Source: Kiritimatiellia bacterium
Lineage (GTDB): Bacteria; Verrucomicrobiota; Kiritimatiellia; RFP12; UBA1067
Assembly (NCBI GenBank): GCA_017514235.1
Contig: JAFWKK010000014.1
Location: forward strand, 19,061 to 83,060
DNA length: 64,000 nucleotides
Reading direction: 5' to 3'
A model generated the notes under the pieces. It was given only the letters and a program-made list of their open reading frames with translations, searched no databases and had not been told where the DNA came from. Position 1 is the stretch's first letter; each line of letters opens with the position of its first letter. Of the stretch, positions 21,138-57,603 are shown one piece after another. A program made the translations under genes and the position numbers.

Positions 21138-22361
21138 TCACATGGCCTTGCGCGAGCCGCAGACGGCGAAGAACAGTATGTACGCGAGGAACCCGGCGAA
21201 CACCCAGCAGCTCGAAAGGATGCCGAAGCGGTCCGTCACGACGCCGATGACGGCGAGGAGCGCCCCGCCCGAGACAAGCGACATCGTGATGCCGGAGGCG
21301 ACGGGCACGAGCCGCCCAAGACCGTCTGTAGCAAGGTTGAAGATGCCTCCGAACATCACCGAGATGCACAGGCCGCACGCGACCATCAGCAGCGACGATA
21401 GCGGCAGCGCAACGGCAACGAACGGCACGGGAACCTTCATGAACGGCACGAGAGCCGCCGCGGAGAGAAGCGCAATCGCCACCGCCGCCGCCGCGCCCAC
21501 CATCGCCTGCGGCGAGACGCGGTTGCCGAGAAGCCCCGCACCGAAGCGCCCGACCATCATGAGCGCACAGTAGGCCGAGACCATGGCGCCGCCCACCACC
21601 GCCCCGGCGTAGGCCGGCGTCCCTTCCGCCGTCAGGTACAGGTTCACCATGTTGCAGATGCCGCACTCGACCGGCTCGAAGAGCAGCATCGCAAGCGCGC
21701 CGAGCGCGAAATGACGGAACTTGAAAGCCGAAATCACGTCCCGCCAGGGCGACGGCGCGTCAGGCTCAAGGTGCGGCTCGGGTATGTCGGCCTTCAGTAT
21801 TACGATGAATCCGAACACGAAGAACGCGAGCGCGGCGATCTGCACCGGCAGGGCGTTGAGGACGTTCGCCTTGGAGACCTCGTTGCCGATCAGGAAGCCG
21901 AGGATGAGCGGCGAAGACATTCCGCCGACAGAGTTGAACGTGCAGCCGTACTGCACGAGCCGGTTGCCGCCCATCCCTCCGCCGCCGAGCGTGTTCATCA
22001 TCGGGTTCGCGACGACGTTCAGCATGCACATCGAGAGGCCCGCCACGAACGCGCCGACGACGTAGACCGCGAACGAGGCTGCGAAGCCTGCGAGCATCTG
22101 CAGGCCGACGCCGGCGATTCCGACCGAGACCGCCGCAAGCGACGTGAACCTGTAGCCCCTGCGCTTCAGCACCATGCCGCAGGGCAGGCCCATGAAAAGG
22201 TAGGCGAGGAAGTTCGCCGACGAGCCGAACTGAGAAAGCGCGTTCGACGCCCCGAACTGCGCCTTAACGACCGCCGCAAGCGGTCCCGTGAACATGGTGA
22301 CGAACCCTACCATGAACACCATGCCGAACATAACGGCGATAGTCAGCCTGTTGCCCTTCAT
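21138..22361 (-). CDS. MFS sugar:H+ symporter, FucP/GluP-like
   Basis: 12-TM protein whose N-terminus resembles L-fucose/glucose-galactose permeases (FMVGFVTMFTGPLAAVVKAQFG...SQFGSSANFLAYLFMGLPCG). Confidence 0.85.
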   Translation of the reverse strand: MKGNRLTIAVMFGMVFMVGFVTMFTGPLAAVVKAQFGASNALSQFGSSANFLAYLFMGLPCGMVLKRRGYRFTSLAAVSVGIAGVGLQMLAGFAASFAVYVVGAFVAGLSMCMLNVVANPMMNTLGGGGMGGNRLVQYGCTFNSVGGMSSPLILGFLIGNEVSKANVLNALPVQIAALAFFVFGFIVILKADIPEPHLEPDAPSPWRDVISAFKFRHFALGALAMLLFEPVECGICNMVNLYLTAEGTPAYAGAVVGGAMVSAYCALMMVGRFGAGLLGNRVSPQAMVGAAAAVAIALLSAAALVPFMKVPVPFVAVALPLSSLLMVACGLCISVMFGGIFNLATDGLGRLVPVASGITMSLVSGGALLAVIGVVTDRFGILSSCWVFAGFLAYILFFAVCGSRKAM

Positions 22362-41476: not shown

Positions 41477-41507
41477 ATGCAATGCGTTTATTTGCTTCGC
41501 ATTGCAT
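41477..41507 (-). terminator. perfect 10-bp stem hairpin (ATGCAATGCG-N11-CGCATTGCAT) abutting the stop codon of the beta-helix gene
   Basis: Arms and loop read directly from the sequence. No U-tract follows, so terminator function is uncertain. Confidence 0.4.
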
Positions 41508-43879: not shown

Positions 43880-43913
43880 GAATACTTCCTTTCTTGCCCG
43901 TTTGTTGGCGCAT

Positions 43914-43919
43914 ATTATA
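43914..43919 (-). promoter_or_regulatory. -10 element TATAAT followed by ATGCGCC, for the beta-helix gene
   Basis: The minus strand reads TACTATAATATGCGCCAAC. Confidence 0.5.
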
Positions 43920-43942
43920 GTAAAAAGGCATTCTCTATCCAA

Positions 43943-43958
43943 CCCTACGAATGTAGGG
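43943..43958. promoter_or_regulatory. palindromic operator candidate CCCTAC-GAAT-GTAGGG (copy A)
   Basis: It lies exactly 23 nt upstream of the -10 hexamer. An identical 16-mer sits at identical spacing at 54815-54830. Confidence 0.55.
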
Positions 43959-43964
43959 GGGGGG
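43956..43964. repeat. G9 homopolymer overlapping the distal arm of operator copy A
   Basis: Counted directly: atgtaGGGGGGGGGaggagg. Confidence 0.95.
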
Positions 43965-44020
43965 AGGAGGACGGGCACCCAAATGGGCCATCCATGCCGC
44001 GCACGTTCCTTGCACCACTT

Positions 44021-45253
44021 TTAGCGTTTCGTTCCAGCCGATCCGAACACCTTGTGGATTGCTTCAAGGTAACCGAAGCCGAATTGCGAATCAGGCTCAA
44101 GGTACGAACCCTCGGTCCACTCGTTCCAAGAGTTGATCGTGATGAGTTTTGGGAGTGGCGAAGCGATGTTAACATCCGCCCATGCCTTGATGCGGCGTGA
44201 ATAACGCTCGAAGTCGGCAGGATTGGAGTTGCGGATGACGCGTTTAGACTCATGGGCCGGATATCGCGCGTTGTTGTCCCAGCCAATGGACACATTCGGG
44301 AAGTACACCATACCGGACGACTTTGCGGCGTCGCGGCAGGCGTCATGTACTTTGAGCGCCAGCTCACCCCATTCAGAATACGTCAGCTCCGGCTGCGACC
44401 TGTCGCCGAGACGCTTGTGGGTGCCGTCAATCCAGCAGTAGCATGTGGCAGAGTCAATGCCTAGCGCCGTCAAATCCTTGCGCATGAGCAAATCACTGCT
44501 GCCACAGATTATCTGGAGATGAAGACCGGTAAATCCCGCCGCCTTCACACGTTCGCGAAGACTGGCTACGCGCTCCTTCGCCTTGTCCAGCCCTTCCCAC
44601 CCAATGAACGACTTTACATCATAAATGGGAAGCACAGGCTTACCGTCGATCTTATAGTAATTCGTTCGCTTGAAGTACTGTGTAATCCAGTGATCCGCAA
44701 TCTGTCGTCAATCGTCGTCGGTGACATTCGCTGGCCATATGACCTTGTACTTGCCGTCCTTTGTCCCCACCTTGTTGTTCCAATAGCTGTTTACGTCATG
44801 GTTGGCCCACATGATGTAGAACTTCATCTTGCCGTTGTTGGATGCGCCGAGAAATCCCTTGTTCAGTGCATCTTCGAGGAACGGACGGCCGCCGTACCAG
44901 TACCAGTCGTAGATAAACACGTTTACGCCATGCGACACCGCAGCGTCGATCTTGCGCTCCACCACCTTAGGATCGGCATCGTTCTCATAGCCCCAGAGCG
45001 GCATGAGCGGCTGGCGGTGCCCTTCCCACTTCGGCACGGCTTCCTTGACGTTCTGCCATTCGCCGATCCCCTCGTTGAAGATGCCAAGCTCTGCCCAGCG
45101 CGGCTCAGGCTGGTATGCCGGCCACACATAGGCGGCAACGTCATACGCCGCCGCCTCGCTCCGCGCACTGCCCGGCCCCGCATCAGCCAAGAACGTCCCG
45201 GCAAAGGCCAGTCCGCATAACAGCACCGCCGCGCAACAATCCTGACTGCGCAT
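44021..45253 (-). pseudogene. WbsX / GH99-like domain protein gene interrupted by one in-frame TGA (44708-44710)
   Basis: ORFs 44708-45253 and 44021-44635 are in the same frame. My translation across the junction is ...WPANVTDDD*RQIADHWITQYFKRTNYYKIDGKPVLPIYD.... The N-terminal half has the WbsX-type pattern (EW.NV...GH.QP..P.WGY...FIYDWYW). Confidence 0.75.
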
Positions 45254-45432
45254 ATCAACGGATGGAGATTATCATGCCAAGCGGCAGAAATTCCACTTGA
45301 GCGGTCGCCGCCTCGCCTACGACCTTCTCGTTGAAGACTGTATAGACAGGTTTCACGGAATAAGTATAGGTATGCATGCTCATCTTTGCTTTTGCCCTAG
45401 TCCAATTCAGCGTCAGCGCAGTGCCCCAAGCG

Positions 45433-46701
45433 TTACTTCGTTAGGCGAAGGAGCGCACCGCCACCGCGAACGATCAAAAGGTCGAACTCCGCGCCGACTG
45501 GCGACCATGTACCAGCAAGCGCATCAAAACGTTCGGCGGCGGTTGGTGCCTTGATGTGGAGTGTGCGGTCTTTGCGGTAGTCGCAGTTCACCACCATCAG
45601 ATGTGTCGGCTTGCCGGGCGCATCAAAGCGCGTAACGAGCGTCGTGTCGGTCAACTCCTGCAATGGCTGAACTTCAGCATATGGTGTTTCAGGCGCAATC
45701 TCCAACAACGCCTGTTCGCAGTACGGCGTCGTGCCAGTCGGGTGAAGCCCCTGAAAATATGCGCCCTTGAAGCGAAGTCCATAAAGTATCTTTGCTATGG
45801 CTACGAACTCGCGATTGAGTGTCTTCAATGCCTCGTACTTTGCATCCGGCGTGCCGTCCAACGCCACGATGGAACCAACGTGCCCCTTGCGGCAGTACAC
45901 ATAGTAGTATATGCCGTGTGCACCATACGCCGCCGTCGTATAGACAAGGTAGCGCATTTCGTCAGGCCCAGGGATGCGCGGAGACGATGGAGAAGCAAGC
46001 TTGCCGGGGGTCCATGAGCAAGCCTGTACGCCGTTCCAGAACGGAATCCCCATTGCCGCCGCACACTGGCGGATAATGCCCATGTTAAGAAAATAGCTTC
46101 CCGCATCCCCGCTCGTCTTGAACTGATAATGGTCGTAGGTCAGGAATTCAGGACCATACGCCTCCCCATAGCGTTTCGCATATTCCCATTAGGCACGGGT
46201 TCTGTCGCCCTCCACGCCAAGTTGCTTGTTTGTGGCATAGCAAGGCAGAAGGTTGATCCACGTAGCATGGTTCGGGTCGCGTCGGCGAATCCATTCCTTT
46301 ACATGTGTCAGTTCGGCGAATCTCTCCGCCGAAGGCTCGTCCCAATGCTGATAGACATAAAGCGCAGGATGGTTCTTCACGCGGTCAATGCGCTCAGCCA
46401 ATGCCGATGCCTGTGCCGCATCGTCAAGATCGACCTTGAACCAAACGGTCTTGGGGTCGAGCATGTAGATTGCGCGCATCCCGTACTTGGCGGCATTGTC
46501 CAGCTCTTCGGGCGTTCGCGCCCACACTGTGTTGAAGCCGCCATCCTTCAGCTGCTGAAGCCAGCGGTCATCCAGCTTCTCCTCGTTCGTCCAATAGCCA
46601 GGCCCACCCCATTAAGCCGCAACTGGCTCTCCCGGCTCCCACGACGCAATGGCGACCACCGCCCAAAGGCATGCGGTCGCCGCCATGAAACCATTCCTCA
46701 T
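45433..46701 (-). pseudogene. clan GH-A-like TIM-barrel glycoside hydrolase gene with two in-frame TAA codons (46612-46614, 46189-46191)
   Basis: A single frame runs from ATG 46701 (GGAGAAAGGG SD, signal peptide MRNGFMAATACLWAVVAIAS) to 45433. The junctions read ...EPVAA*WGGPGYW... and ...DRTRA*WEYAKRYGEAYGPEFLTYDHYQF.... It is paralogous to 60544-61832. Confidence 0.65.
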
Positions 46702-46723
46702 CGCCGAACCCTTTCTCCTACTC

Positions 46724-48808
46724 CTACCGAATCAGAACCGCCATGCCACGCGGCACGAGATAGCCAGCAGACGTAATGCCGAGCCGTATCGTCTTGCCGT
46801 TTGGCTTCTCTGCGCGAATCATCTTCACCTGCGCATCGGTGAGCGCCGCCGCCGAAGTGCCGAATCTCACGGCACCTTCGCGGAAGCCCTTGACAAGCAA
46901 CGTTCCAGACCATGTCTTTGCACTCGAATCTGCAAACGTCATCGTTGCGTTCGCGCCCAACTCAAGAACGGCGCCGTCTGTCACCGTAAGCGCATCCAGT
47001 TCCAACGCACCAGCCGTCTTGCCGAACTTCGCGCCGTTCTTAAGAACAAACTCCCTCTTTCCGGAAACGCTCGTGCGCACCTGAGTGTCAGCACCAATCG
47101 GGAACGGACCACCGTTGTCGCCAAACACAATGCCGCCGCCATTGACAGTTACCGTGCCGCGCATTGCCCATTGTCCGTTGATGCGCATGGTTCCATCACC
47201 ATCCTTCTGCGTGGTGTAGTAGCGGTAATTGGCATGGGAGCCCGATTCAAACGCCGGGATTTCCCCGCCCACAATGAAATCCGCCGCCTCGTCGCCCGTA
47301 ACGTCGGCAACAGAGAACTTGAGAACTTGGCTTGTCCATCCAAGCGCACCGATGGCATCGACTGTTGCAGGCGTTTGGCTTTCGCCGACCACCATCCACT
47401 GCATGAGCTGGTTGTTGCCAACATTTGCGTATGGACCCTTGATTTGCGCACCGTTCAATAGCGTCACGAGCGGCAGGTATGTCTTTGAATCCTTCCAGGT
47501 TCCGCCAGCAGCATACGCACTGTCATGCCCAACCCAGAGAATGCCGCCGTCCACGACGACACATTGTTTGCCGCCATTGAATGTATGTTGGGTAGATGTC
47601 TTTTCTATGAACATCTTGCCATCCTGATGGATGCACAGTTCAGGATAGCCACCACACAGATCGCTGGCAGTTGTATTTATCGACAAGGTGCTGTTCGCAT
47701 ACACATTTACTATGCCATTCGTGGGAACCGAATTGTTTGCCCTTACCGTGACAACCGCGCCGCTCGTGACGGTGAGGTACGATGAGTATTCAAGGTAGTT
47801 CGCCTTCGCCAGCGTCGCGTTGCGCTGATACTCTACGTCGCCCCCGCCGCTGAACACCGGCGCGGCAAACGTGCTGTTCGCCTTTGGCAGAACGGACATC
47901 TTCACGCCAAGCGCAACATCCACCGTGCCGTTCATTGTCGCATCACCGGCAAAGCCAACCGTCGCAACCGAAGCGTTCTTATGCCGCCACACAACGTGCT
48001 TTATGCCGCTGTAGCCAGTGCTGCCGTTGCCTGCCTGTCCTTTATACACTCCACCCTTGATGTGACGCGTATTACCGCTCTTCTCGTTTATGAACCACCA
48101 CCATGCATCGTCCAGCAAACCGTTCGGATAGTAGAAATACGTGTCCCACACGTCTGTCTTCGGCTCGTAAACGCCAAAAGGCTGGCGAACAATCGTTGCC
48201 AACCGGAGATGGACGTCTACATTGCCGGCTTTCGCCGTCTGCATACGAAGCGACCATGTGTATCCGTTTTTCCAGAGATTCATCGCATAAGCGCCGTTGA
48301 CTGGTGCCACGTCTGTCAACTGATAGGTGCCGCGAGGGAAGGAGACGGGCGCACCTGATGGCGGATCGGCAAACGCAGAATAGAACATGTAGTTGTCGAT
48401 AACACCGGCTTTCCCGGGAAGCGCATTGACATCATAGTTTGAAGTCCCTTTCAAGATGGTGTTAGCGCCAGTCCATGAAAGAAATGCTTCGTCCGTGCGC
48501 GTCATGTTGAGATCGCCTTCCGCCGTAACGTCGTTGGCGAAGACAAGACTGCCGTTCGCGACCGCGCCGTCCGACGGCGCGGCGAACTCGATTGTCGCCC
48601 CTGTCGCAAAGGTCATTGCGTTGCCTGTGATGCGCAGTTCCTCGCCGCCTGTCGGCTTGACGGTGACGTTCGTCACGTTGCCGCTACCATCACAGAGAAT
48701 CGTCACCTTGCCGCCCGCCAGCGTCGCGTCGCCGCCAGTCCACGGAAGTTCCGTAGCGGATGCGACCATCGCCGTCGCCGCGCATGTCATAGCCAGTAGT
48801 CTTTTCAT
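46724..48808 (-). CDS. secreted beta-helical repeat surface protein
   Basis: Signal peptide MKRLLAMTCAATAMVASA. Repetitive G/T/N-rich beta-strand pattern. The C-terminus ...GMAVLIR is shared with other giants in the window. Confidence 0.7.
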   Translation of the reverse strand: MKRLLAMTCAATAMVASATELPWTGGDATLAGGKVTILCDGSGNVTNVTVKPTGGEELRITGNAMTFATGATIEFAAPSDGAVANGSLVFANDVTAEGDLNMTRTDEAFLSWTGANTILKGTSNYDVNALPGKAGVIDNYMFYSAFADPPSGAPVSFPRGTYQLTDVAPVNGAYAMNLWKNGYTWSLRMQTAKAGNVDVHLRLATIVRQPFGVYEPKTDVWDTYFYYPNGLLDDAWWWFINEKSGNTRHIKGGVYKGQAGNGSTGYSGIKHVVWRHKNASVATVGFAGDATMNGTVDVALGVKMSVLPKANSTFAAPVFSGGGDVEYQRNATLAKANYLEYSSYLTVTSGAVVTVRANNSVPTNGIVNVYANSTLSINTTASDLCGGYPELCIHQDGKMFIEKTSTQHTFNGGKQCVVVDGGILWVGHDSAYAAGGTWKDSKTYLPLVTLLNGAQIKGPYANVGNNQLMQWMVVGESQTPATVDAIGALGWTSQVLKFSVADVTGDEAADFIVGGEIPAFESGSHANYRYYTTQKDGDGTMRINGQWAMRGTVTVNGGGIVFGDNGGPFPIGADTQVRTSVSGKREFVLKNGAKFGKTAGALELDALTVTDGAVLELGANATMTFADSSAKTWSGTLLVKGFREGAVRFGTSAAALTDAQVKMIRAEKPNGKTIRLGITSAGYLVPRGMAVLIR

Positions 48809-48865
48809 CTCTGTTTTCCTATCTCGTTCAGAAGTTGGCAGTCAGTTGGTAAAAATACGAACCGA

Positions 48866-48871
48866 ATTATA
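48866..48871 (-). promoter_or_regulatory. extended -10 (TGTATAAT) for 48808 gene
   Basis: The plus strand reads GAATTATACAC in the intergenic region, 57 nt upstream of the SD-preceded ATG. Confidence 0.5.
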
Positions 48872-48969
48872 CACTATCTGCCATGCAGCTTCAAGCAGGG
48901 CACGAAAATTCACCATCCGGCCTTCGCCGCGATGACTGGCTTTCTCTTGTCAGGTCTAAAGATATCGCA

Positions 48970-51906
48970 TCAGCGAATCAATATCATCGTTCCCTTCTGC
49001 CAAAGCAAGAGAGCTTGACCGCCACCGTCCAACGACGCGATTTCAAGCTTGTACCCCTTAAGCCCGTTCGCAAGCCTGGGGATCGTCCCCGTGAAAGAAC
49101 CTGTCGTCTTGAGAACAAGCTCCCCACCCAGAACGAACGCCTCGGGATCTGGGAACCCGATGGCCGAGATCGACGAAAGATCAAATGTCTCACGGTCAAT
49201 CGTCATCGGTTCTCCGCCCTCGCGAACAAGCGTAAAGCCTGCGGCAAAGCTTACGGAAGACTCGACCGTGACCGGCCCGGCATTCGTCGCAGTGCCGGCG
49301 ATGGTGCCGTTGCGAATCGTTCCTGTGCCATAGATCCCGGAGACCGGATGCGCCTTGCCATCCAAATCGACCGTCGCGCCAGCGGCGATGTCCAGCGTCC
49401 ACGGAAATTCCGACTCGGACGTCAACGTCGCCACGCCGCTCCGGACATCCAGGACAGGGGTGCCGGACGAGACCGCCTCCACCGTCAATGCCCCCGCCCC
49501 GGTCTTGCGCATCGTCGCCACGTCCTTCCAGACGCCACCGACAGCCTTTGCGTCGGCACAGTCCACCACGAACGTTCCCGAGCCTTCAACGCTGCCGTTG
49601 CCTTCAATGGTTTCAACAGGCTGTACGACGCCTTCGGAAAGTTCGATCGCGCCGGGGAAGCCGATTATGCAGCGGCGGATCGTCGAACACTGCTGGTTCG
49701 CCGCCAGCGACAACACGCCGTCGCTCACCACGACCTGACGCAACGCGCTGCGGCCACCGGCAAGCGTAAGACGTCCGCCCTTTGTCTTGGAAAGCGCAGT
49801 TTCCGGCCAGGCCGACGCAACGGTCACGTTGCCGCCCATGATCTCGCCCGTCATAACGGGCATGCCGTTCAATGTCAAGGCGCCCGTGGACACCAGATTG
49901 CGCACCGTGACTCCGTTGCCCACGGTCAGCGTAGTTTCTCCGTCGGCATCTACGAGGGCATCCCTACCGACCCCCTTCTCGGCCGACCAGGGGTTTTCCG
50001 GCACCGTTCCGGACGACGCCCAGCCGGAAGCACCAGTCGTCCATGTGCCGGACGAACCGCCAGACCATACCAGCAGGTCTGTGCCGGGAGGTGCAGGCAG
50101 ACGATTCAGGCGACGCACCTGCACGGCATTCACCTGAGGCGATACGTTTTGTGCGCTGTTCGCCGTGTACTGCATCTTCATGACATGGGAAGAAGAACTC
50201 GGGAGGAAAGCGAGCACAGCGCTGTTTGTGTAGCGGACGAAATCCGCCTGGTTGCCATACTTTACGAGACGGTCTTCGGTACCAGCACCAACACGAGAAT
50301 CATTGACGAAGACCTGGATTAGATAAGGCTTGAACGGTTCAAGTCCGTTGAACGTCAAAGACTTTTCCATTATCAACTGCCCGCCGTTGGCGTAAATACC
50401 GGCAGCAAGCAACTTTTCGAAAGACGTCGTCGCACCTGGAAGGAATGCCGTTGCGTTGCGCTTCGTGAAACCTGCAAGTTCCACGTTCCCGGAACCCCAC
50501 GACGTATAGGATGTTTGCCAAGCGAAGGTCACTCCGTTAACGGTCTGGTCCGAATTCGCCGGAGTATAGGCATAGACCGTCTGCCCATCGTTTCGCACAG
50601 ACGTCTCGTCCGCAAGCCCGACCGTAGTATTCTCGGCCACCAACGACTCCACTTCCATGTCCGTGATGTCGCGAACCTGCAGCGCATTGAACGCCGGATT
50701 GTTTTTCGACGATCCGTCCCTGTTGTAGCCGCGTATGCGAATGGTCTTGTTCGTGGAGCCTGCGACGAACACGCCTGTCACGGTCTGTCCCCTGTATCCG
50801 TTGGCGCCGTCGTAAGCGTCCAGCGAACGCACTCCATCCACTTTCTGGTACACCGCGCATACGGCGTCTTCGTAGCGCGCATCAACATACCACATCTGGA
50901 CAAGGTACTTTCTGCCAGGAACGAGCTTCGTCAACGTAACGTCAAGCCACGATGCCCCATACCCCCTGACGAACAAGATCGAATAGACAAGATTCTTATA
51001 TTCCCCTGGCGTCCCCGCCGGATATTCCGACCTCGCAATCATAGAAGCGCCTGACGAGGACTTCTCAACACTGGTCGTCGTTCCATCTTGCCGCGCCACG
51101 AGCACGTCGTCGCCCGATATGCTTAGGTTCTTGAATGTGACCCCGTTCACATTGAGGTCGTCCTGACTGCCGTTGACATGATATGCGTACAAAGTTGTGC
51201 CGACATTGACGACTTCCGAACCGTCTCCTATCGTCTGCGGTTCACCCCATGCTATCGAAGGGAGTTTCCGCACCTGAATCGCATTGATCATGGGCTGCGT
51301 TGCGCTGTAGATCGAAATCGCCTGCTGTACGGAATCCGCCCTGAAACGGCCTATGGCATATTGGCCGTAACTTGCACCGTCCGGATGGGCACCAACCGTA
51401 CAGGTTCCATCAAGGACCATGTTATAGCTCGACACCGTTGAACGGTTGTCGTTGATCCAAATCTGCACCAGATATTCTTCGCCGGGCTGCAGACCGAGCA
51501 GCGTTGCCGTCGCCGTGGCATTTCCACCGCGATGCCAAGCTGCTCCGGCCAGAAGATTTCTATATGCGTCCGAGAACGTGGATGTGACCACGAAATTACC
51601 AAGGAAAGTATTGACACGCAGTTGTTCTAAAGTCGCCAACTGGACGTCAGGCTCCTGAGAACTCACATACAGCTGACCGGAGGAGGAGAGTCCCTTGAAC
51701 ATAACGCCGTTGATCTCCGCATCGGCATTGTTCTCGTTGTAGGCGTACAGAAGTTCGCCCTCTGTCGAAACATCGGTATCTGCGCCGATGTTCTGCGCTT
51801 CTTCCCACGCGATCGTGGCGGAAAACAGCCGAAGCGGCATCGTCGCCGCCGCAATTATCGCCGCAAGGCCCACATGACTCCGAAGCAATCCAATGATCTT
51901 TCTCAT
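48970..51906 (-). CDS. secreted giant protein: three tandem ~190-aa carbohydrate-binding-like modules plus beta-helical C-terminal half
   Basis: Signal peptide present. Three repeats each contain YAY..(I/V)NGV(M/T)F, PG..YLVQ(I/M)W and NA(I/L/V)QVR(K/D/R)(L/I). The C-terminus is ...GTMILIR. Confidence 0.7.
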   Translation of the reverse strand: MRKIIGLLRSHVGLAAIIAAATMPLRLFSATIAWEEAQNIGADTDVSTEGELLYAYNENNADAEINGVMFKGLSSSGQLYVSSQEPDVQLATLEQLRVNTFLGNFVVTSTFSDAYRNLLAGAAWHRGGNATATATLLGLQPGEEYLVQIWINDNRSTVSSYNMVLDGTCTVGAHPDGASYGQYAIGRFRADSVQQAISIYSATQPMINAIQVRKLPSIAWGEPQTIGDGSEVVNVGTTLYAYHVNGSQDDLNVNGVTFKNLSISGDDVLVARQDGTTTSVEKSSSGASMIARSEYPAGTPGEYKNLVYSILFVRGYGASWLDVTLTKLVPGRKYLVQMWYVDARYEDAVCAVYQKVDGVRSLDAYDGANGYRGQTVTGVFVAGSTNKTIRIRGYNRDGSSKNNPAFNALQVRDITDMEVESLVAENTTVGLADETSVRNDGQTVYAYTPANSDQTVNGVTFAWQTSYTSWGSGNVELAGFTKRNATAFLPGATTSFEKLLAAGIYANGGQLIMEKSLTFNGLEPFKPYLIQVFVNDSRVGAGTEDRLVKYGNQADFVRYTNSAVLAFLPSSSSHVMKMQYTANSAQNVSPQVNAVQVRRLNRLPAPPGTDLLVWSGGSSGTWTTGASGWASSGTVPENPWSAEKGVGRDALVDADGETTLTVGNGVTVRNLVSTGALTLNGMPVMTGEIMGGNVTVASAWPETALSKTKGGRLTLAGGRSALRQVVVSDGVLSLAANQQCSTIRRCIIGFPGAIELSEGVVQPVETIEGNGSVEGSGTFVVDCADAKAVGGVWKDVATMRKTGAGALTVEAVSSGTPVLDVRSGVATLTSESEFPWTLDIAAGATVDLDGKAHPVSGIYGTGTIRNGTIAGTATNAGPVTVESSVSFAAGFTLVREGGEPMTIDRETFDLSSISAIGFPDPEAFVLGGELVLKTTGSFTGTIPRLANGLKGYKLEIASLDGGGQALLLWQKGTMILIR

Positions 51907-51952
51907 GTCATTACTCCTTATTGGTTTCTTGTTTTCGACATGCTGACGAGCT

Positions 51953-52300
51953 TCATTTAAGCCTCCTCGCGAAGTCGATCATCCCATCAAGAATGGCCGC
52001 ACCCTCCGGCTTGCCGGAAAGAAGATCAAGGCCGAAGCTCTCCACCGCGACACCATCTCCGACATTGCGCTGGGCAAGATAGGCGAAGCATTCCTCCCTG
52101 CCCTCGCCAACCATGAAGAGATCCTTCTCGGCGATGCCGGAACCGGCCAATGGCTTTCCGTTCCCGATGATGCGGAAAAGGAGCGGCGAAAGAAATCCTT
52201 CATGAGGCAAATCGCCAAAAACCGGATGCTTCAAAAGCGCCGTGCCGACCTGACTGCCCATCCTCCACCAGCCGAGTTTCACATTGGGAACTCCCTCGGC
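51953..52300 (-). pseudogene. in-frame continuation of the GH2 gene beyond a TAG codon (C-terminal ~115 codons)
   Basis: Same frame as 52301-54772. The junction reads ...CRVVAIG*AEGVPNVKLGWWRMGSQ.... Composition after the stop is protein-like. Confidence 0.55.
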
Positions 52301-54772
52301 CTAGCCGATAGCCACGACGCGGCATCCTTGCGAAAGCGCATCTTCCGCCTCTGGCGAATCAGATTCCACGACCACGACGGGTGGGACGCTGTCCTGCGAA
52401 TCTTTTTCAGCCGCAGCGGACTGCGACCCTCCCGCATTCGGTCGCAACATGCGTGTCCTTCCCGCGTTGAACACCTCAAAACCGCAGTACAGCTTCGACA
52501 TGGCATCTTTGAGCGACGGCGAAACGGCGATTCCGCGCCCGTCTCTCCGTTCGCGGCGCGGAAACACCCAGAAGTCCCATTCGTTCGAGACGCCGCCGAC
52601 TGACGCAGAGAGCGTAACCTTGACGGGCTTTTCTACGGACGGGAAGACTATCTTCTCCGAAGCGATCTTGCGTACAGGCCCGATGGCAATGTCGCCCACC
52701 TTGCATGAACCGGTGACATTCCCGATGCTCAAGCTCCATTCAAGCGCTGCGTCCCTCAGCGCCGCGTCGCCGTAATGGGCGAACAGGACGTTCGCATCCA
52801 GCGTCTCGCCAGACGTAAACACCCGCCGGTCGTCCGGCACGTCGAGAAGGATGCACGACGGGCCGTTGAACAACGCAAACTCCGCCGCCGCGAATCCGCC
52901 GCGCATCGGTTCCCAGAAAGGATTGAACAGCCCTTGTGCCGTGTAGGTGCCGCTCTGCTCCACTGCCACATCGGCTATAGTCCAGAAACAATAGCCGTCG
53001 CAGTACGGGTCGCACCGCGCCGACTCCACCCCGCTCTTCTGGCAATGCCGCTGAAGCGCGTGCTGTGCGTCCTGGAGCCGGTCGCCCCATTCCATGCCGA
53101 GGCCAAACTTCGCGAGCCAATCGGCGCGAGCCTTGCGCGTCACGGGCGGCATCCACGCGCCGGTGTATCCGAACTCGTCGCGCGAATCGGACTTGACGCA
53201 GAGATTCAGGTATTCGTGCGTCACGAACGGACGGTCGGGGTTCAAGCTCCCGCGCTCCCATACGTTTATCGGCCCTCCGAGGTAATCCGCCGCCTCGGGC
53301 GGATTGATCCACGCTTCATGGCAGTCCTGGTTGATCTTGAGCCTGTCGGGATCCATCGCCTTGACGTAGGCATGCATCTGCCGATCCAGCGCCGTTCCGA
53401 ACGATCCTTCATTTCCCATCGAATAGACTGCGAACGACGGATGGCGGCGGTAGTTGAGCCAAAGTTCAGTAACGTCGCGCTTGGGATCGAACGCAAAGTT
53501 CTCGGTCGGCGCATCGCTGTAGTACGGCAGCTCGGCCTGGATCAGAATCCCAAGTTCATCCGCGGCCTCGAAATACTCCGGCAGTTCGCAGTGGGTATGC
53601 AGACGCACGAAATTGAAGCCTGCTTCCCGCGCTTTTGCGAGATGCCCACGATGGAAGTCGCGGGCCGCAGGCGAAAGCCCTGTCAGCGGGTAGACCGCAT
53701 CGTCTCCGAACCCGCGCACAAAGAACGGCTTGCCGTTGAAATAAAACTCCTTTCCTCTCACCTCAAGCTTCCTCACGCCGAACCGTTCGCGCCTCGCATG
53801 GATGACCTTGTCGTTCTCGACCAGCTCCACGACACCGGTATAGAGATTAGGATGTTCAGGAGACCATGCGCGAAAGGCGGGGAGGGAAAGCTTGAGAGTC
53901 TGAGGGTTCGAAGGTTTGAGAGTTTGTTCCACAACGGTTCCGTCAACCGTAAAGCGAATCCGAACGGGAGAGGCGGGCGCCGCCCCGTCCAAGGCCGACA
54001 CGGAGGTCAGCCCTCCTATCGTCGCATGAACCTCGGCGGTCTTCTCGTCAAAGTCGCCGCGCACCCAGGCATCGTCTATGAACGTCTGAGGCGTAGCCTC
54101 AATCTCCACGTCGCGGTATATGCCGCCCCATTTGTGCACATTGCTCATCAAGCCCTTGCGCGACGGGCACACATTGTTCACCTGCGCGACAATCATGGCG
54201 TTCGAGCCAGGCGAAACAAGATCGGATATCTCGTATTTGCATGTGCCGCAGTAGTTGTCCACGAGCGCGACCTGCTTCCCGTTCACCCAGAACCATCCGC
54301 AAGACTTCACGCCGCCAACTTTCAACCAAATGCGCTTGCCCGCCCAATCGGCAGGAATGCCGACGGACTTGCGATACCAGCCGTCACCACGGTGCTTGTG
54401 GCGAATCGGCTTCTTGCTGTTGTCCCATGCCGCATCCCAGCATTCGGACATCCCCGGTTCGCCCACGCCCTGCGCTTCCCAGCATCCCGGCACGGATATC
54501 GCGCGCACCCCGGGCCAAACCGCTTCTTTGTAAAAATCATGCCATATGCCGTTGCGCCAAGGCACAGCCATGTTCTGCGAAGCAAACTCCCATTCGCCGC
54601 GCAGCGAAAGCACGCTCCCCTGTTCGTTTCCAGCTACCGGATTCACGACGGCCAAATGCTCCCTGCGCCCGCCCCAGACACAGGCCACCTCCGATTCCGG
54701 CAACTCCGCCGTCCACGCGCTCGCAGACGCAAACGCAACGGCCATCGCCAACTTGTACGCCACCTTGTTCAT
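52301..54772 (-). CDS. glycoside hydrolase family 2 protein (beta-galactosidase/glucuronidase/mannosidase-type)
   Basis: Signal peptide present. Sugar-binding domain (GDGWYRKSV...WLKVGGVKSCGWFWVNGKQV), WGGIYRDVEIEA, and TIM barrel (GFNFVRLHTHCELPEYFEAADELGILIQAELPYY). Confidence 0.85.
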   Translation of the reverse strand: MNKVAYKLAMAVAFASASAWTAELPESEVACVWGGRREHLAVVNPVAGNEQGSVLSLRGEWEFASQNMAVPWRNGIWHDFYKEAVWPGVRAISVPGCWEAQGVGEPGMSECWDAAWDNSKKPIRHKHRGDGWYRKSVGIPADWAGKRIWLKVGGVKSCGWFWVNGKQVALVDNYCGTCKYEISDLVSPGSNAMIVAQVNNVCPSRKGLMSNVHKWGGIYRDVEIEATPQTFIDDAWVRGDFDEKTAEVHATIGGLTSVSALDGAAPASPVRIRFTVDGTVVEQTLKPSNPQTLKLSLPAFRAWSPEHPNLYTGVVELVENDKVIHARRERFGVRKLEVRGKEFYFNGKPFFVRGFGDDAVYPLTGLSPAARDFHRGHLAKAREAGFNFVRLHTHCELPEYFEAADELGILIQAELPYYSDAPTENFAFDPKRDVTELWLNYRRHPSFAVYSMGNEGSFGTALDRQMHAYVKAMDPDRLKINQDCHEAWINPPEAADYLGGPINVWERGSLNPDRPFVTHEYLNLCVKSDSRDEFGYTGAWMPPVTRKARADWLAKFGLGMEWGDRLQDAQHALQRHCQKSGVESARCDPYCDGYCFWTIADVAVEQSGTYTAQGLFNPFWEPMRGGFAAAEFALFNGPSCILLDVPDDRRVFTSGETLDANVLFAHYGDAALRDAALEWSLSIGNVTGSCKVGDIAIGPVRKIASEKIVFPSVEKPVKVTLSASVGGVSNEWDFWVFPRRERRDGRGIAVSPSLKDAMSKLYCGFEVFNAGRTRMLRPNAGGSQSAAAEKDSQDSVPPVVVVESDSPEAEDALSQGCRVVAIG

Positions 54773-54785
54773 TTTCCTGGCGCAT

Positions 54786-54791
54786 ATTGTA
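54786..54791 (-). promoter_or_regulatory. -10 element TACAAT followed by ATGCGCC, for the GH2 gene
   Basis: The minus strand reads TTATACAATATGCGCCAGGAAAATG. Confidence 0.5.
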
Positions 54792-54814
54792 TAAAATCGC
54801 CGTCACCTTTCACA

Positions 54815-54830
54815 CCCTACGAATGTAGGG
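54815..54830. promoter_or_regulatory. palindromic operator candidate CCCTAC-GAAT-GTAGGG (copy B; extended arms CACCCTAC/GTAGGGTG)
   Basis: It lies 23 nt from the minus-strand -10 and 24 nt from the plus-strand -10, so it is centred between the divergent GH2 and kinase promoters. Confidence 0.55.
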
Positions 54831-54854
54831 TGGGTGCGTCGATTCAAGATATGC

Positions 54855-54860
54855 TATAAT
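54855..54860 (+). promoter_or_regulatory. extended -10 (TGCTATAAT) 8 nt upstream of ATG 54869 (leaderless kinase mRNA)
   Basis: The plus strand reads ATGCTATAATGAACTCCAATG. Confidence 0.55.
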
Positions 54861-54868
54861 GAACTCCA

Positions 54869-56983
54869 ATGAAGGTACGTCATGCCATCACCTTGTTGTC
54901 CCTCTTTGCCGCCTTGGCCGCCCGCAACATCCGTGCAACGGGAACAATCCGCAGCACAGACGGCATAAGGTCAATCAGCATGAGGGATGCCGTGTCACCG
55001 GGCGTTCCGTTCGACATAAAAGCATGGGTCGTCTATCCAGAAAAGATCGGTTGCGAAGAACACGACAGCATCTACATCAAGGACGATTCCGGCTCGGCAA
55101 CGCTGCTGAACCGCCTCACCCCGACAAACGCCACCATTTGCGCAGGAGATCTTGTCCGTGCAACCGGACGCGTCGTTCTGGACGGCAATGGCATCTGCAT
55201 CTACGCATACTGCCTTGAAATGACACGCCTTGCGCACAAAAAGCCGGAGCCGCCCATGAAGATGACGGTCGAAGAACTCCTTTCAGGACAGCATGACGGG
55301 CAGTTCGTCACCGTGCGCGGCGAGATACGCGATTCATTCCCTGACGACATCGACAACCGGTTCCTGTATTTCAGCCTGAAGGACGGCAAAAAGTCCATAT
55401 ACATGGCAACCCCCACAAACAGATGCGTCAAGACGGATCGCGACGGCATAATCGGCGACACAGTGGAGGCTACAGGCATTTGGGTGTTGGGGAAATACGG
55501 GGGAACGCGGCAGCACATCGGGCGGTTTCTCGCGCTGGTCGGAGCCGATTCCCTGCGGACTGTCAAAACCCACGGAGCCGACATCTTCAACGCCCCGGAG
55601 ATTGCGGACGTGAAGTCTCTCATGCCAAACGAACTGCCGCCCCTTGAACGCCGGCGCATCACCGGAACCGTGCTGGCGTCGTGGCATGATGACCAGGCGC
55701 TAGTCAGGACCGACGACGGAAGCATTGTCCGCATAGACACCTCATCCCCTCCAGTTCCTGAAGCCGGCCGCCGGATAGAGGCGGTGGGGTTCCCAGAAAC
55801 AGATCTCTACGCCGTAAACCTCAGCAACGTCAGGTGGCGTCCGACGCAAGGCGACCCGATTCCGCAGCTGCCTTCGGTACGTCTTCCTGAAGGATATGTC
55901 CGCACAGACGGCGCAACGCCCCAACAGGTACAGGCAGCCCTTCATGGACGCACAGTCGTCGTCACCGGGATAGTCCGCGGCCTTCCGCAGAGCGAAAGCG
56001 ACAGGCGGCTGATACTGGAATGCGAGGGGAACCTCCTGCCGATCGACTTCAGTTCCTGCCAGGACGCCTTTTCGGGACTCGCCATAGGAAGCACCGTTGA
56101 AGTGCGCGGCGTATGGGTGATGGTAGCGGACAATTGGCGGCCGAACTCCGTCTTTCCGAAAGTGAAGGGAGCTTTTGTTGTCGTGAATTCGCCGGACGAC
56201 CTTCGCGTGCTGGCACGTCCTTCGTGGTGGACTGCCGGACGTTCCCTGACTGTGATCGGGCTGCTGCTGGCAATGATGCTCGCCACACTTGCGTGGAACA
56301 GGTCGCTCAAGGCGATTGCGGAACGGCGCGGACGCGAACTGTTCGAGGAAAGGGTCGCGCATGTCGCATCCGACCTGCGCGTGGGCGAGCGAACGAGCCT
56401 CGCCGTGGAGCTGCACGACACGATCGCGCAGAACCTCACAGGCGTAGCGCTTGAGATAAACGCCGCCAACAAGCTCATCGGCTCCGACCTTTCAAGCGCG
56501 CACAGGCACCTCGACACCGCGGCAAAGACCCTCAGCTCGTGCAGGACGGAACTCAAGAACTGTCTCTTCGACCTGCGCGGCAACGCCCTCGGGCAGCGAG
56601 ACATGGATGCGGCCATCCGCCTTTCCGTCACGCCGGTGATCGGGGATGCGGAATTGGCCGTGCGCTTCAACGTGCCGCGAGAACTCATCACAGACGCCTC
56701 TGCCCACGCCATCATACGGATCGTCCGCGAACTCGCGTCTAACGCCGTCCGTCACGGCGGCGCACGCAAAGTCAAGGTAGCGGGGTCGGCCGATGCCGGA
56801 GTGCTCATGTTCTCGGTCACGGACGACGGCTGCGGTTTCGCCGTGGAGCAGGCGCCAGGCATTAACGAATGCCATTTCGGTCTTCAAGGCATCCGCGAGC
56901 GCGTGGCGCGCTTCCAAGGCGAGATGAAGATCGAATCAACGCCCGGCAAAGGCACACATGTAACCGTCGCCATAAAAGCATGA
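54869..56983 (+). CDS. sensor histidine kinase (HisKA_3/NarX-DesK type) with large extracytoplasmic N-terminal sensor region
   Basis: Signal peptide, then ~440 aa with repeated beta-rich modules (VTVRGEIRD-like segments), a TM segment (SLTVIGLLLAMMLATLAW), the H-box LAVELHDTIAQNLTG and an HATPase domain (DDGCGF...GLQGIRERV). Confidence 0.88.
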   Translation: MKVRHAITLLSLFAALAARNIRATGTIRSTDGIRSISMRDAVSPGVPFDIKAWVVYPEKIGCEEHDSIYIKDDSGSATLLNRLTPTNATICAGDLVRATGRVVLDGNGICIYAYCLEMTRLAHKKPEPPMKMTVEELLSGQHDGQFVTVRGEIRDSFPDDIDNRFLYFSLKDGKKSIYMATPTNRCVKTDRDGIIGDTVEATGIWVLGKYGGTRQHIGRFLALVGADSLRTVKTHGADIFNAPEIADVKSLMPNELPPLERRRITGTVLASWHDDQALVRTDDGSIVRIDTSSPPVPEAGRRIEAVGFPETDLYAVNLSNVRWRPTQGDPIPQLPSVRLPEGYVRTDGATPQQVQAALHGRTVVVTGIVRGLPQSESDRRLILECEGNLLPIDFSSCQDAFSGLAIGSTVEVRGVWVMVADNWRPNSVFPKVKGAFVVVNSPDDLRVLARPSWWTAGRSLTVIGLLLAMMLATLAWNRSLKAIAERRGRELFEERVAHVASDLRVGERTSLAVELHDTIAQNLTGVALEINAANKLIGSDLSSAHRHLDTAAKTLSSCRTELKNCLFDLRGNALGQRDMDAAIRLSVTPVIGDAELAVRFNVPRELITDASAHAIIRIVRELASNAVRHGGARKVKVAGSADAGVLMFSVTDDGCGFAVEQAPGINECHFGLQGIRERVARFQGEMKIESTPGKGTHVTVAIKA

Positions 56984-57603
56984 AACAGCCGATTCGCATC
57001 CTGATTGCCGATGACCACGCCGTCGTGCGGCGCGGACTTCGCTCCATACTCCAGATCGAGAAGGACTTCCAGATAGCAGGCGAGGCGGCGAGCGGCGCCG
57101 AAGCCGTGGAAATGGCAAGGCAACTCAAGCCGCAGGTCGTCATCATGGATCTCATCATGCCGGAGAAAAGCGGCAGCGAAGCGACCGCCGAGATCCTTAC
57201 CGAGCTTCCCGAGACGCGGATACTGCTGCTGACGACGTTCGGGACTGCAGATGACGTGACGAAAGCGCTTGAAGCCGGAGCGGTCGGGGCGCTGATGAAA
57301 ACATCGGACGAATCCGAGATAATCTCCTCGATACGTACAGTCGCCGCAGGCGGACGTGCCGTATCCGATGAAATCAAACGCCTCATCGAGGAAAACCCGC
57401 CGACCCCGGAGCTGACTCCTCGACAGCTCGAGATACTGAACTCATTGTCTCGCGGCTACTCAAACGCCGAAATCGCAGAAGTGTTCGGCATCAACGAATT
57501 CACCGTAAGGGAACATGTCGCAAACATCATGGCGAAGCTCGACGCGTCAAATCGAGCAGAAGCCGTTGCCATCGCGCTGCGCAGGAGCCTGTTGAAATTC
57601 TAA
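56980..57603 (+). CDS. NarL/FixJ (LuxR-type HTH) response regulator
   Basis: Receiver domain IRILIADDHAVVRRGL...VVIMDLIMP. LuxR HTH LTPRQLEILNSLSRGYSNAEIAEVFGINEFTVREHVANIMAKL. The start is ATG 56980, overlapping the kinase stop (ATGA). Confidence 0.92.
   Translation: MKQPIRILIADDHAVVRRGLRSILQIEKDFQIAGEAASGAEAVEMARQLKPQVVIMDLIMPEKSGSEATAEILTELPETRILLLTTFGTADDVTKALEAGAVGALMKTSDESEIISSIRTVAAGGRAVSDEIKRLIEENPPTPELTPRQLEILNSLSRGYSNAEIAEVFGINEFTVREHVANIMAKLDASNRAEAVAIALRRSLLKF

What the first reader, a model, noticed from the sequence alone, without database searches (positions are those of the whole stretch)
43914..54860. Identical 16-nt palindrome at fixed 23-nt distance from the -10 in two promoters 11 kb apart, and centred between the divergent GH2 and two-component-system promoters
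CCCTACGAATGTAGGG occurs at 43943-43958 and 54815-54830, and I saw it nowhere else in the window. Read on the minus strand, both copies share the same layout: 23 nt of unrelated sequence, then a -10 hexamer (TATAAT at 43919-43914, TACAAT at 54791-54786), then the identical heptamer ATGCGCC. These precede the beta-helix gene (ATG 43879) and the GH2 gene (ATG 54772). Copy B also lies 24 nt upstream of the plus-strand TGCTATAAT (54855-54860) of the leaderless histidine kinase / LuxR-type response-regulator operon. One dimer-sized site therefore sits at a class-II-activator-like position (about -42) for two divergent promoters. LuxR/NarL-type regulators typically bind short inverted repeats. The simplest model is an autoregulated two-component system whose regulon includes at least these two secreted glycan-active enzymes. 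Conservation of only the palindrome and the -10/discriminator, with divergent spacers, argues for selection rather than duplication.
Basis: partly seen in the sequence, partly recalled or inferred. Interest (0 to 1): 0.75.

Follow-up and report, generated by a model that had tools for sequence, protein, structure and literature searches.

The report
Conserved two-component regulator binding site
The repeated 16-base palindrome is real and is most likely the DNA docking site of the neighbouring two-component regulator, switching on plant-glycan-degrading genes in an uncultured gut or rumen bacterium; it is a sound but ordinary kind of regulatory site.

Summary
CCCTACGAATGTAGGG occurs exactly twice in the window (0.01 expected by chance). 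In both copies it lies 23 nt upstream of a TAYAAT hexamer followed by ATGCGCC. Copy B also lies 24 nt upstream of the TGCTATAAT of the leaderless kinase gene.

The window comes from an uncultured Kiritimatiellae bacterium. In every related kinase/regulator locus I could fetch, CCCTAC-N4-GTAGGG or a nested variant of it sits between the kinase gene and a divergent gene for a secreted protein. That divergent gene differs from locus to locus (GH2, GH28, LamG-like, unknown). The arms never change, and only the two loop bases nearest the target gene vary. The distance to the target-side -10 is 23 nt in 14 of 14 promoters.

In two relatives the beta-helix gene is the third gene of the GH2 operon. 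In the window a 5-kb segment splits that operon, and copy A sits at the segment's downstream edge.

The best reading is an operator for the adjacent NarL/LiaR-type response regulator, probably activating. Its geometry matches ComA (6-4-6) and SsrB (7-4-7) sites. Binding, transcription starts and the inducing signal are all untested.

This is a new member of a known kind, of moderate interest.

The parts
54815..54830 (.). Palindrome copy B (CCCTAC-GAAT-GTAGGG). With flanks it reads CACA-CCCTAC-N4-GTAGGG-TGGG. It is shared by the divergent GH2 and kinase promoters.
   Evidence: conserved in orthologous loci
43943..43958 (.). Palindrome copy A, identical 16-mer, in front of the beta-helix gene only. 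There is no divergent promoter on its plus side.
54786..54791 (-). Predicted -10 (TACAAT) of the GH2 operon promoter, 23 nt from copy B
54779..54785 (-). ATGCGCC block immediately after the -10 (discriminator and start region). It recurs in orthologous target promoters.
54808..54814 (-). -35-like TGTGAAA abutting the palindrome. It also forms the outer flank of the extended dyad.
54852..54860 (+). Extended -10 (TGCTATAAT) of the kinase/regulator operon. The hexamer starts 24 nt from copy B and is followed by 8 nt before the ATG, so the transcript is predicted to be leaderless.
54869..56983 (+). Sensor histidine kinase (704 aa): HisKA_3 + HATPase_c core, with an N-terminal sensor region of about 450 aa that matches no family
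56980..57603 (+). NarL/LiaR-type response regulator (207 aa; receiver + GerE helix-turn-helix). It is the candidate binder of the palindrome.
51953..54772 (-). GH2 gene, first gene of the target operon. The window copy carries a premature stop at codon 824 (52301-52303).
48970..51906 (-). 978-aa protein of unknown family, second gene of the ancestral operon
43921..48962 (-). 5,042-bp segment absent from the closest relative (L043). It carries its own TGTATAAT promoter (hexamer starting at 48871, minus strand), genes for 694-aa and 216-aa proteins, a split WbsX/GH99-like gene and, at its downstream end, copy A with its 23-nt spacer.
43914..43919 (-). Predicted -10 (TATAAT) of the beta-helix gene promoter, 23 nt from copy A. 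The indel junction relative to L043 falls here.
43907..43913 (-). ATGCGCC block after the -10 of copy A's promoter (ATTCGCC in L043)
41507..43879 (-). Rhamnogalacturonase-A/pectate-lyase-like beta-helix protein (790 aa). It is the third gene of the GH2 operon in relatives.

Best explanation
The palindrome is the operator of the adjacent two-component system, and its full form is about 18-24 bp: (CMCA)-CCCTAC-AT-NN-GTAGGG-(TGKG).

Proposed mechanism:
1. The membrane kinase (54869-56983) senses an extracellular signal through its large N-terminal domain. The signal is probably a pectin- or rhamnogalacturonan-derived glycan.
2. The kinase phosphorylates the NarL/LiaR-type regulator (56980-57603).
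3. The regulator dimer binds the two GTAGGG half-sites.
4. From a position abutting the -35 region (site centre about -43.5), the dimer helps RNA polymerase start at the target promoter, whose -10 lies exactly 23 nt away.

At copy B the same dimer also faces the kinase promoter, giving positive autoregulation on top of a basal extended -10 promoter. Copy A gives the beta-helix gene the same control now that a 5-kb segment separates it from the GH2 operon it belongs to in relatives.

Shown: the sequence anatomy, its conservation, its linkage to the two-component system, and the operon history. Inferred: who binds, the direction of control, the transcription starts and the signal.
For: **Non-random repeat.** There are two exact copies against 0.01 expected.

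**Linkage to the two-component system.**
- Loci fetched through the regulator or beta-helix protein, and so not selected for the motif, were winB, L012, L015b, L040, L051 and L053. All have CCCTAC-N4-GTAGGG between the kinase gene and a divergent gene.
- L011 has a nested 28-nt version, CCCCTACCCCTCA-CA-TGAGGGGTAGGGG.
- Loci found by DNA pattern (L020, L022, L023, L025, L026, L032) were all kinase-adjacent too.
- The divergent gene differs between loci: GH2, GH28, LamG-like, glycine-rich and unknown.

**Protein-site signature.** The arms are invariant. Read towards the target gene the loop is ATTC, ATTT, ATAT or ATGT, so only its two target-proximal bases vary. Information content is 1.94 bits per position in the site, against 0.3-1.0 in the flanks.

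**Spacing.**
- The target-side -10 is 23 nt away in 14 of 14 promoters.
- The kinase side is 24 nt in 9 loci, 23 in 1 and 22 in 1.
- In L022 a 16-nt duplication of the right half-site restores 24 nt on the kinase side while the target side keeps 23.

**Candidate binder.**
- The regulator has a receiver plus GerE helix-turn-helix; its closest solved relatives are VraR/LiaR, DesR, NarL and DevR.
- Its recognition-helix region is (N/K/S)EF(T/S)(V/A)REH(V/I) in all palindrome loci.
- The only paralogue seen (44% identity; SLTGVKKHLQ) has a different inverted repeat and no CCCTAC site.

**Regulon.**
- L040 and L043 have GH2, the roughly 970-aa gene and the beta-helix gene contiguous. L040 has the palindrome upstream of GH2.
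- L026 independently has a second, non-kinase-adjacent copy 23 nt upstream of TATAAT, in front of the gene after GH28.

**Precedent.** ComA binds a 6-4-6 inverted repeat upstream of the RNA polymerase site (PMC4797271). SsrB uses a 7-4-7 palindrome with a degenerate 4-bp spacer (PMC2837388).
Against: - No binding, expression or transcription-start data exist for this organism, and the -10 elements are consensus matches only.
- Several target promoters have near-consensus -10 and fair -35-like hexamers (winA matches 10 of 12). They might be active without an activator, which would fit repression as well.
- The kinase promoter is an extended -10 type that is common in this genome and may be independent of the site.
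- Only one paralogue was available to test whether regulator specificity and site sequence change together.
- Many loci were found by searching for the motif itself, which inflates the apparent conservation of the core.
- One rumen MAG (RUG11810) has two distinct kinase loci with the same site. If the binning is right, the site is not unique to one regulator copy.
- The rest of the source genome could not be scanned, so the size of the regulon is unknown.
Confidence: 0.65

Rival explanations
1. The same regulator binds the site but acts as a repressor or a dual regulator. Occupying the dyad between two back-to-back promoters blocks both until the signal arrives.
For: Target promoters have good -10 hexamers and -35-like TTGGAT/TGTGAA at a 16-17 nt gap. 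The kinase promoter is an extended -10 type that should fire unaided. The extended dyad flank overlaps the -35 region.
Against: The site lies upstream of the -35 hexamer rather than over the -10 or the start. An exact 23-nt distance in 14 of 14 promoters, and the spacing-restoring duplication in L022, are what face-of-helix contacts with RNA polymerase would require; simple occlusion would not. The characterised relatives with this geometry, ComA and SsrB, are activators (PMC4797271, PMC2837388).
Confidence: 0.2
2. The palindrome is the operator of a different transcription factor encoded elsewhere, and its position next to the two-component system is incidental or reflects control of that system by another regulator.
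For: No binding data exist. Two kinase loci in one MAG share the same site. Copies also occur away from any kinase gene: winA and the second copy in L026.
Against: Every locus with a regulator of this family has the site, or the nested L011 variant, whatever the neighbouring gene. Within about 252 kb of related DNA, part of it overlapping, every copy is at a kinase locus or in its operon. The 6-4-6 / 7-4-7 dyad is the geometry used by NarL-family dimers.
Confidence: 0.1
3. It is a structural RNA or DNA element: a hairpin acting as a terminator, processing site or attenuator.
For: The 16-mer can fold into a 6-bp stem with a 4-nt loop, -8.1 kcal/mol. Copy A and the second L026 copy lie between co-directional genes and could be transcribed by read-through.
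Against: No T-run follows on either strand, and the terminator scan finds nothing at either copy. There is no Rfam match. At kinase loci the site lies upstream of both predicted starts. The arms never covary, being invariant in sequence, which points to base-specific reading rather than pairing.
Confidence: 0.03
4. It is a dispersed repeat (REP/MITE-like), or simply a remnant of a duplication with no function.
For: REP elements often carry GTAG/CTAC ends (PMC2817692). Copy A sits at the edge of a 5-kb indel. The promoter modules are homologous to one another.
Against: There are only 2 copies in 64 kb, and every copy found in about 252 kb of related DNA is at a promoter 23 nt from a -10. The core stays exact across loci whose flanks have diverged to 0.3-1 bit per position. 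Single GTAGGG hexamers are not enriched: 10 observed against 13 expected.
Confidence: 0.02

Closest known systems
ComA boxes of Bacillus subtilis (NarL-family response regulator)
   Same: An inverted repeat of two hexamers separated by 4 nt (TTGCGG-N4-CCGCAA), placed upstream of the RNA polymerase site of activated promoters. Extra half-sites occur nearby (PMC4797271), as in the L011 and L022 variants here.
   Different: The half-site sequence is different (GTAGGG). The system here is linked to glycan-degrading genes rather than quorum sensing. One site is shared by two divergent promoters. Nothing has been tested experimentally.
SsrB 18-bp 7-4-7 palindrome of Salmonella SPI-2 (NarL family)
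   Same: With its invariant flanking A/T the site reads ACCCTAC-N4-GTAGGGT, a 7-4-7 layout. The 4-bp spacer is the most variable part. A site also lies upstream of the regulator's own operon. New genes have been recruited by gaining the site (PMC2837388).
   Different: SsrB sites are degenerate, and a single heptamer can suffice. Here the arms are invariant and the distance to the -10 is fixed to the base.
LuxR/TraR-type lux boxes and class II activator sites (from general knowledge)
   Same: A dyad site abutting or overlapping the -35 region and centred in the low -40s, with strict spacing.
   Different: The predicted centre here is -43.5/-44.5, assuming a start 7 nt after the -10. The regulator is a phosphorylation-driven response regulator, not an autoinducer receptor.
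Locus-specific glycan sensors of Bacteroidota polysaccharide utilisation loci (hybrid two-component systems, SusR, ECF/anti-sigma pairs; from general knowledge)
   Same: A sensor/regulator pair is encoded next to, and presumably controls, secreted glycoside hydrolases (here GH2, GH28, a rhamnogalacturonase-like protein, and GH106 nearby).
   Different: This is a classical two-protein HisKA_3/NarL system in Kiritimatiellae. No SusC/SusD pair was seen in the genes examined. The regulator and its promoter are highly conserved while the adjacent target gene changes between relatives.

Membership tests
Operator of a NarL/FixJ (GerE helix-turn-helix) response regulator | Dyad-symmetric site made of 6-7-nt half-sites with a short spacer | tested here: met
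   CCCTAC-N4-GTAGGG, extended to ACCCTAC-N4-GTAGGGT in all loci except winA, where a G follows GTAGGG
Operator of a NarL/FixJ (GerE helix-turn-helix) response regulator | A regulator of that family is encoded with the site | tested here: met
   Receiver + GerE protein at 56980-57603. Its closest solved relatives are VraR/LiaR, DesR, NarL and DevR. It co-occurs with the site, or the nested L011 variant, in all related loci.
Operator of a NarL/FixJ (GerE helix-turn-helix) response regulator | Half-sites conserved and spacer free to vary among orthologous promoters | tested here: met
   The arms are invariant. Read towards the target gene the loop is ATTC, ATTT, ATAT or ATGT: AT is constant and the two target-proximal bases vary. 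Information content is 1.94 bits in the site against 0.3-1.0 in the flanks. Part of the set was found through the motif itself.
Operator of a NarL/FixJ (GerE helix-turn-helix) response regulator | Site sequence changes when the recognition helix changes | tested here: inconclusive
   One paralogue (44% identity, different helix) has a different inverted repeat and no CCCTAC site. One case is too few.
Operator of a NarL/FixJ (GerE helix-turn-helix) response regulator | Direct, specific binding by the regulator | not testable with these tools
   Needs EMSA, footprinting or DAP-seq
Class II-type activator-dependent promoter | Site centred near -41.5 and overlapping the -35 region, at a fixed distance | tested here: inconclusive
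   The distance to the -10 is fixed at 23 nt in 14 of 14 promoters. The centre would be -43.5 if the start is 7 nt after the -10, but no transcription start has been mapped.
REP / dispersed extragenic palindromes | High copy number scattered through intergenic DNA without promoter register | tested here: not met
   2 copies in 64 kb; every copy in about 252 kb of related DNA is in promoter register. The whole genome was not available.
Intrinsic terminator | G+C-rich stem followed by a T-run | tested here: not met
   The terminator scan finds nothing at either copy, and no T-run follows on either strand
Known structured RNA family (Rfam) | Match to a covariance model | tested here: not met
   No match at E <= 1 across 43000-56000

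The most novel reading that the evidence does not exclude
The kinase, the regulator and the bidirectional palindrome promoter form a conserved, portable control cassette in rumen and gut Kiritimatiellae. The regulators are 84-92% identical across the related loci compared, and the promoter is fixed to the base. The gene plugged into the target side has been swapped repeatedly (GH2, GH28, LamG-like, glycine-rich proteins). Extra copies of the 45-nt 'palindrome + 23 nt + -10' module have spread to further genes (winA at the edge of a 5-kb indel; the second copy in L026). On this reading, regulon growth happens by moving a ready-made promoter module rather than by point mutation.
Probability: 0.3. 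Interest if true: 0.5.

Novelty: new member of a known kind. Interest (0 to 1): 0.35.

Why it matters
Kiritimatiellae are abundant, mostly uncultured degraders of complex glycans in guts and sediments. My three literature searches found no described promoter or operator for them.

This site gives three things:
- a concrete, testable regulator-operator pair;
- a short motif for predicting the regulon in metagenome-assembled genomes;
- a clean example of a promoter whose spacing is fixed to the base across species.

It also shows that extended -10, leaderless promoters are common in this lineage. It does not reveal a new regulatory principle.

Tried and rejected
1. **Genome-collection scan** with CCCTACRAATGTAGGGKGG. 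It gave only 3 true and 3 chance hits. The KGG flank was too strict: it misses L040-type sites with a TGT flank. The source species gave no hit.
2. **Metagenome scan** with ACCCTACRWWTGTAGGGKGG. Of 16 stretches, 6 were true (5 distinct loci). The rest were unrelated conserved sequences or a tandem repeat (L039).
3. **Origin of copy A.** Homologues of the WbsX-like gene that precedes it (L044-L050) have no palindrome downstream, so the origin is unresolved.
4. **Insertion or deletion.** I could not decide whether the 5-kb segment was inserted in the window lineage or deleted in L043. L043 keeps CTATGATATTCGCCAAC where the window has CTATAATATGCGCCAAC, which fits either microhomology or a decayed remnant.
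5. **Kinase sensor domain.** A single-sequence AlphaFold model failed (pLDDT 36). Pfam and NCBIfam give nothing for it, so there is no structural clue to the signal.
6. **More sites in the window.** A search for half-site + N23-24 + TAnnnT found only the three known promoters, plus three one-mismatch matches with poor hexamers: 6 observed against 13 expected.
7. **Literature.** No paper turned up on Kiritimatiellae promoters or two-component control, or on a GTAGGG dyad bound by a response regulator.
8. **Exact-protein look-up of the window's GH2** failed, because the window copy has a nonsense SNP.

Full report

Yes. CCCTACGAATGTAGGG occurs at 43943-43958 and 54815-54830 and nowhere else in the window, even with two mismatches allowed. 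Chance expectation is 0.01, and no shuffle gave two copies. Relaxing the loop to N4 and allowing two mismatches adds nothing.

The element is an inverted repeat with 6-nt arms and a 4-nt loop. The loop GAAT is not self-complementary, and both copies point the same way relative to their minus-strand genes.

Read on the minus strand, both copies are followed by 23 nt, then TATAAT (43919-43914) or TACAAT (54791-54786), then ATGCGCC. Copy B is also followed on the plus strand by 24 nt, then TATAAT (54855-54860) preceded by TGC, then 8 nt, then the kinase ATG at 54869.

The two regions align without gaps over 62 nt at 74% identity (D6). The 23-nt spacers are 11/23 identical by my count, so they are not unrelated.

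Pfam confirms the genes:
- a rhamnogalacturonase-A/pectate-lyase-like beta-helix protein (41507-43879, minus strand);
- GH2 (to 54772, minus strand);
- a HisKA_3 kinase (54869-56983);
- a receiver+GerE regulator (56980-57603);
- a GH106 rhamnosidase (57656-60538, minus strand).

**2. Where does the window come from?**

The regulator is 100% identical to a protein of a Kiritimatiellae metagenome-assembled genome. More than 120 distinct relatives at 83-100% identity exist in metagenomes. The window is part of a 177-kb ENA scaffold. Related contigs carry names of rumen uncultured genomes.

**3. Comparative evidence**

I fetched loci in three ways: through regulator homologues, through beta-helix homologues, and through DNA pattern scans.

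*Loci not selected for the motif.* L012, L015b, L040, L051 and L053, together with the window, all have CCCTAC-N4-GTAGGG between the kinase gene and a divergently transcribed gene. L011 has a nested 28-nt version with four half-sites, CCCCTACCCCTCA-CA-TGAGGGGTAGGGG. L025, which encodes the identical regulator protein, has the ordinary site.

*Loci found by pattern.* All true hits (L020, L022, L023, L025, L026, L032) are also kinase-adjacent.

*The divergent gene varies.* It is GH2, GH28, a LamG-like repeat protein, a glycine-rich protein or an unknown secreted protein. The kinases are 73-78% identical in most loci. L020 (63%) and L023/L036, which have a different sensor domain (54% over the C-terminal 500 aa), are the exceptions. 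The regulators are 84-92% identical to the window's. So the site goes with the two-component system, not with the target gene.

*Conservation profile.* In an ungapped register alignment of ten kinase loci, the 16-mer carries 1.94 bits per position. The target-side -10 carries 1.7 bits, the spacers about 0.9-1.0, and the outer flanks 0.3-0.5. The core value is inflated because six loci were found through the motif.

*Loop and flanks.* Read towards the target gene, the loop is ATTC, ATTT, ATAT or ATGT: AT is constant and only the two target-proximal bases vary. The flanks extend the dyad to roughly CMCA-CCCTAC-N4-GTAGGG-TGKG.

*Spacing.* The target-side -10 is exactly 23 nt from the repeat in 14 of 14 promoters. 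On the kinase side it is 24 nt in nine loci, 23 in one and 22 in one. In L022 it is 40 nt, but there a 16-nt duplication has created a second GTAGGG half-site exactly 24 nt from the kinase -10, while the full dyad keeps 23 nt on the other side.

**4. The two window genes are functionally linked**

In L040 (83% nucleotide identity) and L043 (88%), GH2, the roughly 970-aa gene and the beta-helix gene are contiguous. They are 55-60 nt apart with no palindrome between them. L040 has the palindrome between the kinase gene and GH2.

In the window, 5,042 bp (43921-48962) are absent from L043. This segment has lower G+C. It carries its own extended -10 promoter, two genes of unknown family and a split WbsX/GH99-like gene. 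Copy A and its 23-nt spacer form the downstream end of this segment.

The junction falls at the -10: L043 reads CTATGATATTCGCCAAC where the window reads CTATAATATGCGCCAAC. Two histories fit, and I cannot decide between them:
- the segment was inserted in the window lineage, guided by microhomology;
- the segment was present in the common ancestor and was deleted in L043, leaving a decaying remnant.

Either way, a gene that relatives transcribe from the palindrome promoter has its own copy of that promoter in the window.

L026 gives an independent parallel. It reads: kinase gene, palindrome, GH28 gene, second palindrome (loop ATGT), 23 nt, TATAAT, glycine-rich protein gene.

**5. Promoter context**

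In this genome many genes have TGnTATAAT followed by 7-9 nt and the ATG. These are extended -10, leaderless promoters, for example at 41165, 30819 and 5622. The kinase promoter is of this type.

Most target-side promoters (9 of 14) lack the TG motif. They have a T-rich tract before the -10 and a -35-like TTGGAT/TGTGAA that abuts the dyad.

ATGCGCC, or a close variant, follows the -10 in winA, winB, L015b, L023, L051, L053 (ACGCGCC) and L022 (ACGCACC). It is absent from the other promoters in the window. It is a feature of this promoter module whose role I cannot explain.

**6. Mechanism**

The most likely reading is an operator for the adjacent regulator. That protein has a GerE helix-turn-helix. 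Its nearest solved relatives are VraR/LiaR, DesR, NarL and DevR, and these bind dyad sites as dimers.

Two characterised family members use the same geometry:
- ComA recognises two hexamers separated by 4 nt, upstream of the RNA polymerase site, often with extra half-sites (PMC4797271).
- SsrB uses a 7-4-7 palindrome whose 4-bp spacer is the degenerate part, including a site at its own operon (PMC2837388).

The recognition-helix region is nearly constant in all palindrome loci. The one paralogous pair seen (L015a, 44% identity, different helix) has a different inverted repeat and no CCCTAC site. That is suggestive but is a single case.

I favour activation, at roughly 2:1 over repression. The base-exact distance and the spacing-restoring duplication are what contacts with RNA polymerase would demand. 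The good -10 and fair -35 elements keep repression open.

The signal is unknown. The gene set points to pectin or rhamnogalacturonan: GH28 in two loci, a rhamnogalacturonase-like beta-helix protein, GH2, and GH106 next door. That is inference from family names.

**7. Rivals rejected**

- **Terminator or RNA hairpin.** There is no T-run and no scan hit, no Rfam match, and the arms are invariant rather than covarying. The hairpin would be -8.1 kcal/mol.
- **REP-like repeat.** Every copy in about 252 kb of related DNA is in promoter register. Single GTAGGG hexamers are not enriched.
- **Chance.** Excluded and by conservation across species.

**8. Limits**

- The source genome beyond the window could not be scanned.
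- The single genome-collection scan used too strict a flank.
- The origin of copy A is unresolved.
- The kinase sensor domain has no family match, and the single-sequence structure model failed.
- No literature on this system was found.

**9. Verdict**

This is a real, selected, conserved regulatory site. It is most likely the operator of a NarL-type two-component system that controls secreted glycan-active genes in an uncultured Kiritimatiellae lineage. It is a new member of a well-known kind of system. It is useful for annotating and testing regulation in this phylum, but not surprising in principle.

Noticed in passing
window 52301-52303 (GH2 gene 51953-54772, minus strand): The window's GH2 gene has a premature in-frame stop at codon 824, caused by one SNP (52303 A, versus T in the otherwise near-identical contig L001, where the protein is 939 aa). 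This is either strain-level pseudogenisation or an assembly or consensus error.
   Followed up: yes
window 44021-45253 (minus strand): A WbsX/GH99-like gene is split into two ORFs: 44708-45253 matches the N-terminal part of the profile and 44021-44635 the C-terminal part. It is probably a frameshifted pseudogene inside the 5-kb segment.
   Followed up: partly
window 41165, 30819, 5622, 54855 (-10 hexamers): Several genes have TGnTATAAT followed by only 7-9 nt before the ATG. Extended -10, leaderless promoters therefore seem common in this Kiritimatiellae genome.
   Followed up: partly
window 43907-43913 and 54779-54785; also L015, L023, L051, L053, L022: The heptamer ATGCGCC (variants ACGCGCC, ACGCACC) directly after the target-side -10 is conserved across species but absent from other promoters in the window. 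It is a G+C-rich discriminator or start region of unknown role.
   Followed up: partly
L011 1153-1301: A locus whose regulator protein is identical to that of L025 has a nested 28-nt palindrome, CCCCTACCCCTCA-CA-TGAGGGGTAGGGG (four half-sites), instead of the 16-mer. Its kinase -10 is about 39 nt away.
   Followed up: partly
L022 about 1330-1390: A 16-nt tandem duplication (GTAGGGTGGTGGGAAA / GTAGGGTGGGAAAG) adds a third half-site. Both promoter distances (23 and 24 nt) are preserved as a result.
   Followed up: yes
L015 122-239 (also L016, L017): A second, distantly related HisKA_3/NarL pair (regulator 44% identical) lies 5 kb from the first. It has a different inverted repeat (CCAAAG-N9-CTTTGG), 24 nt upstream of its kinase-side TATAAT.
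   Followed up: partly
L020 and L022 (both contigs of MAG RUG11810): One rumen MAG holds two distinct kinase loci with the same palindrome but different divergent genes and different kinase N-termini. Either these are paralogous systems sharing an operator, or the bin is mixed.
   Followed up: no
window 7648-7712 and 21138-21202 (also 7719-7747 and 21334-21362): Two stretches are 95-97% identical and lie 13.5 kb apart. They are probably paralogous coding segments.
   Followed up: no
L041/L042 4554-9712: In a more distant relative, the beta-helix orthologue (79% identical) follows an FGE-sulfatase-family gene and a 464-aa sigma-70-like protein. There is no palindrome and no two-component system nearby, so this gene's regulatory context is not conserved throughout the lineage.
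   Followed up: partly
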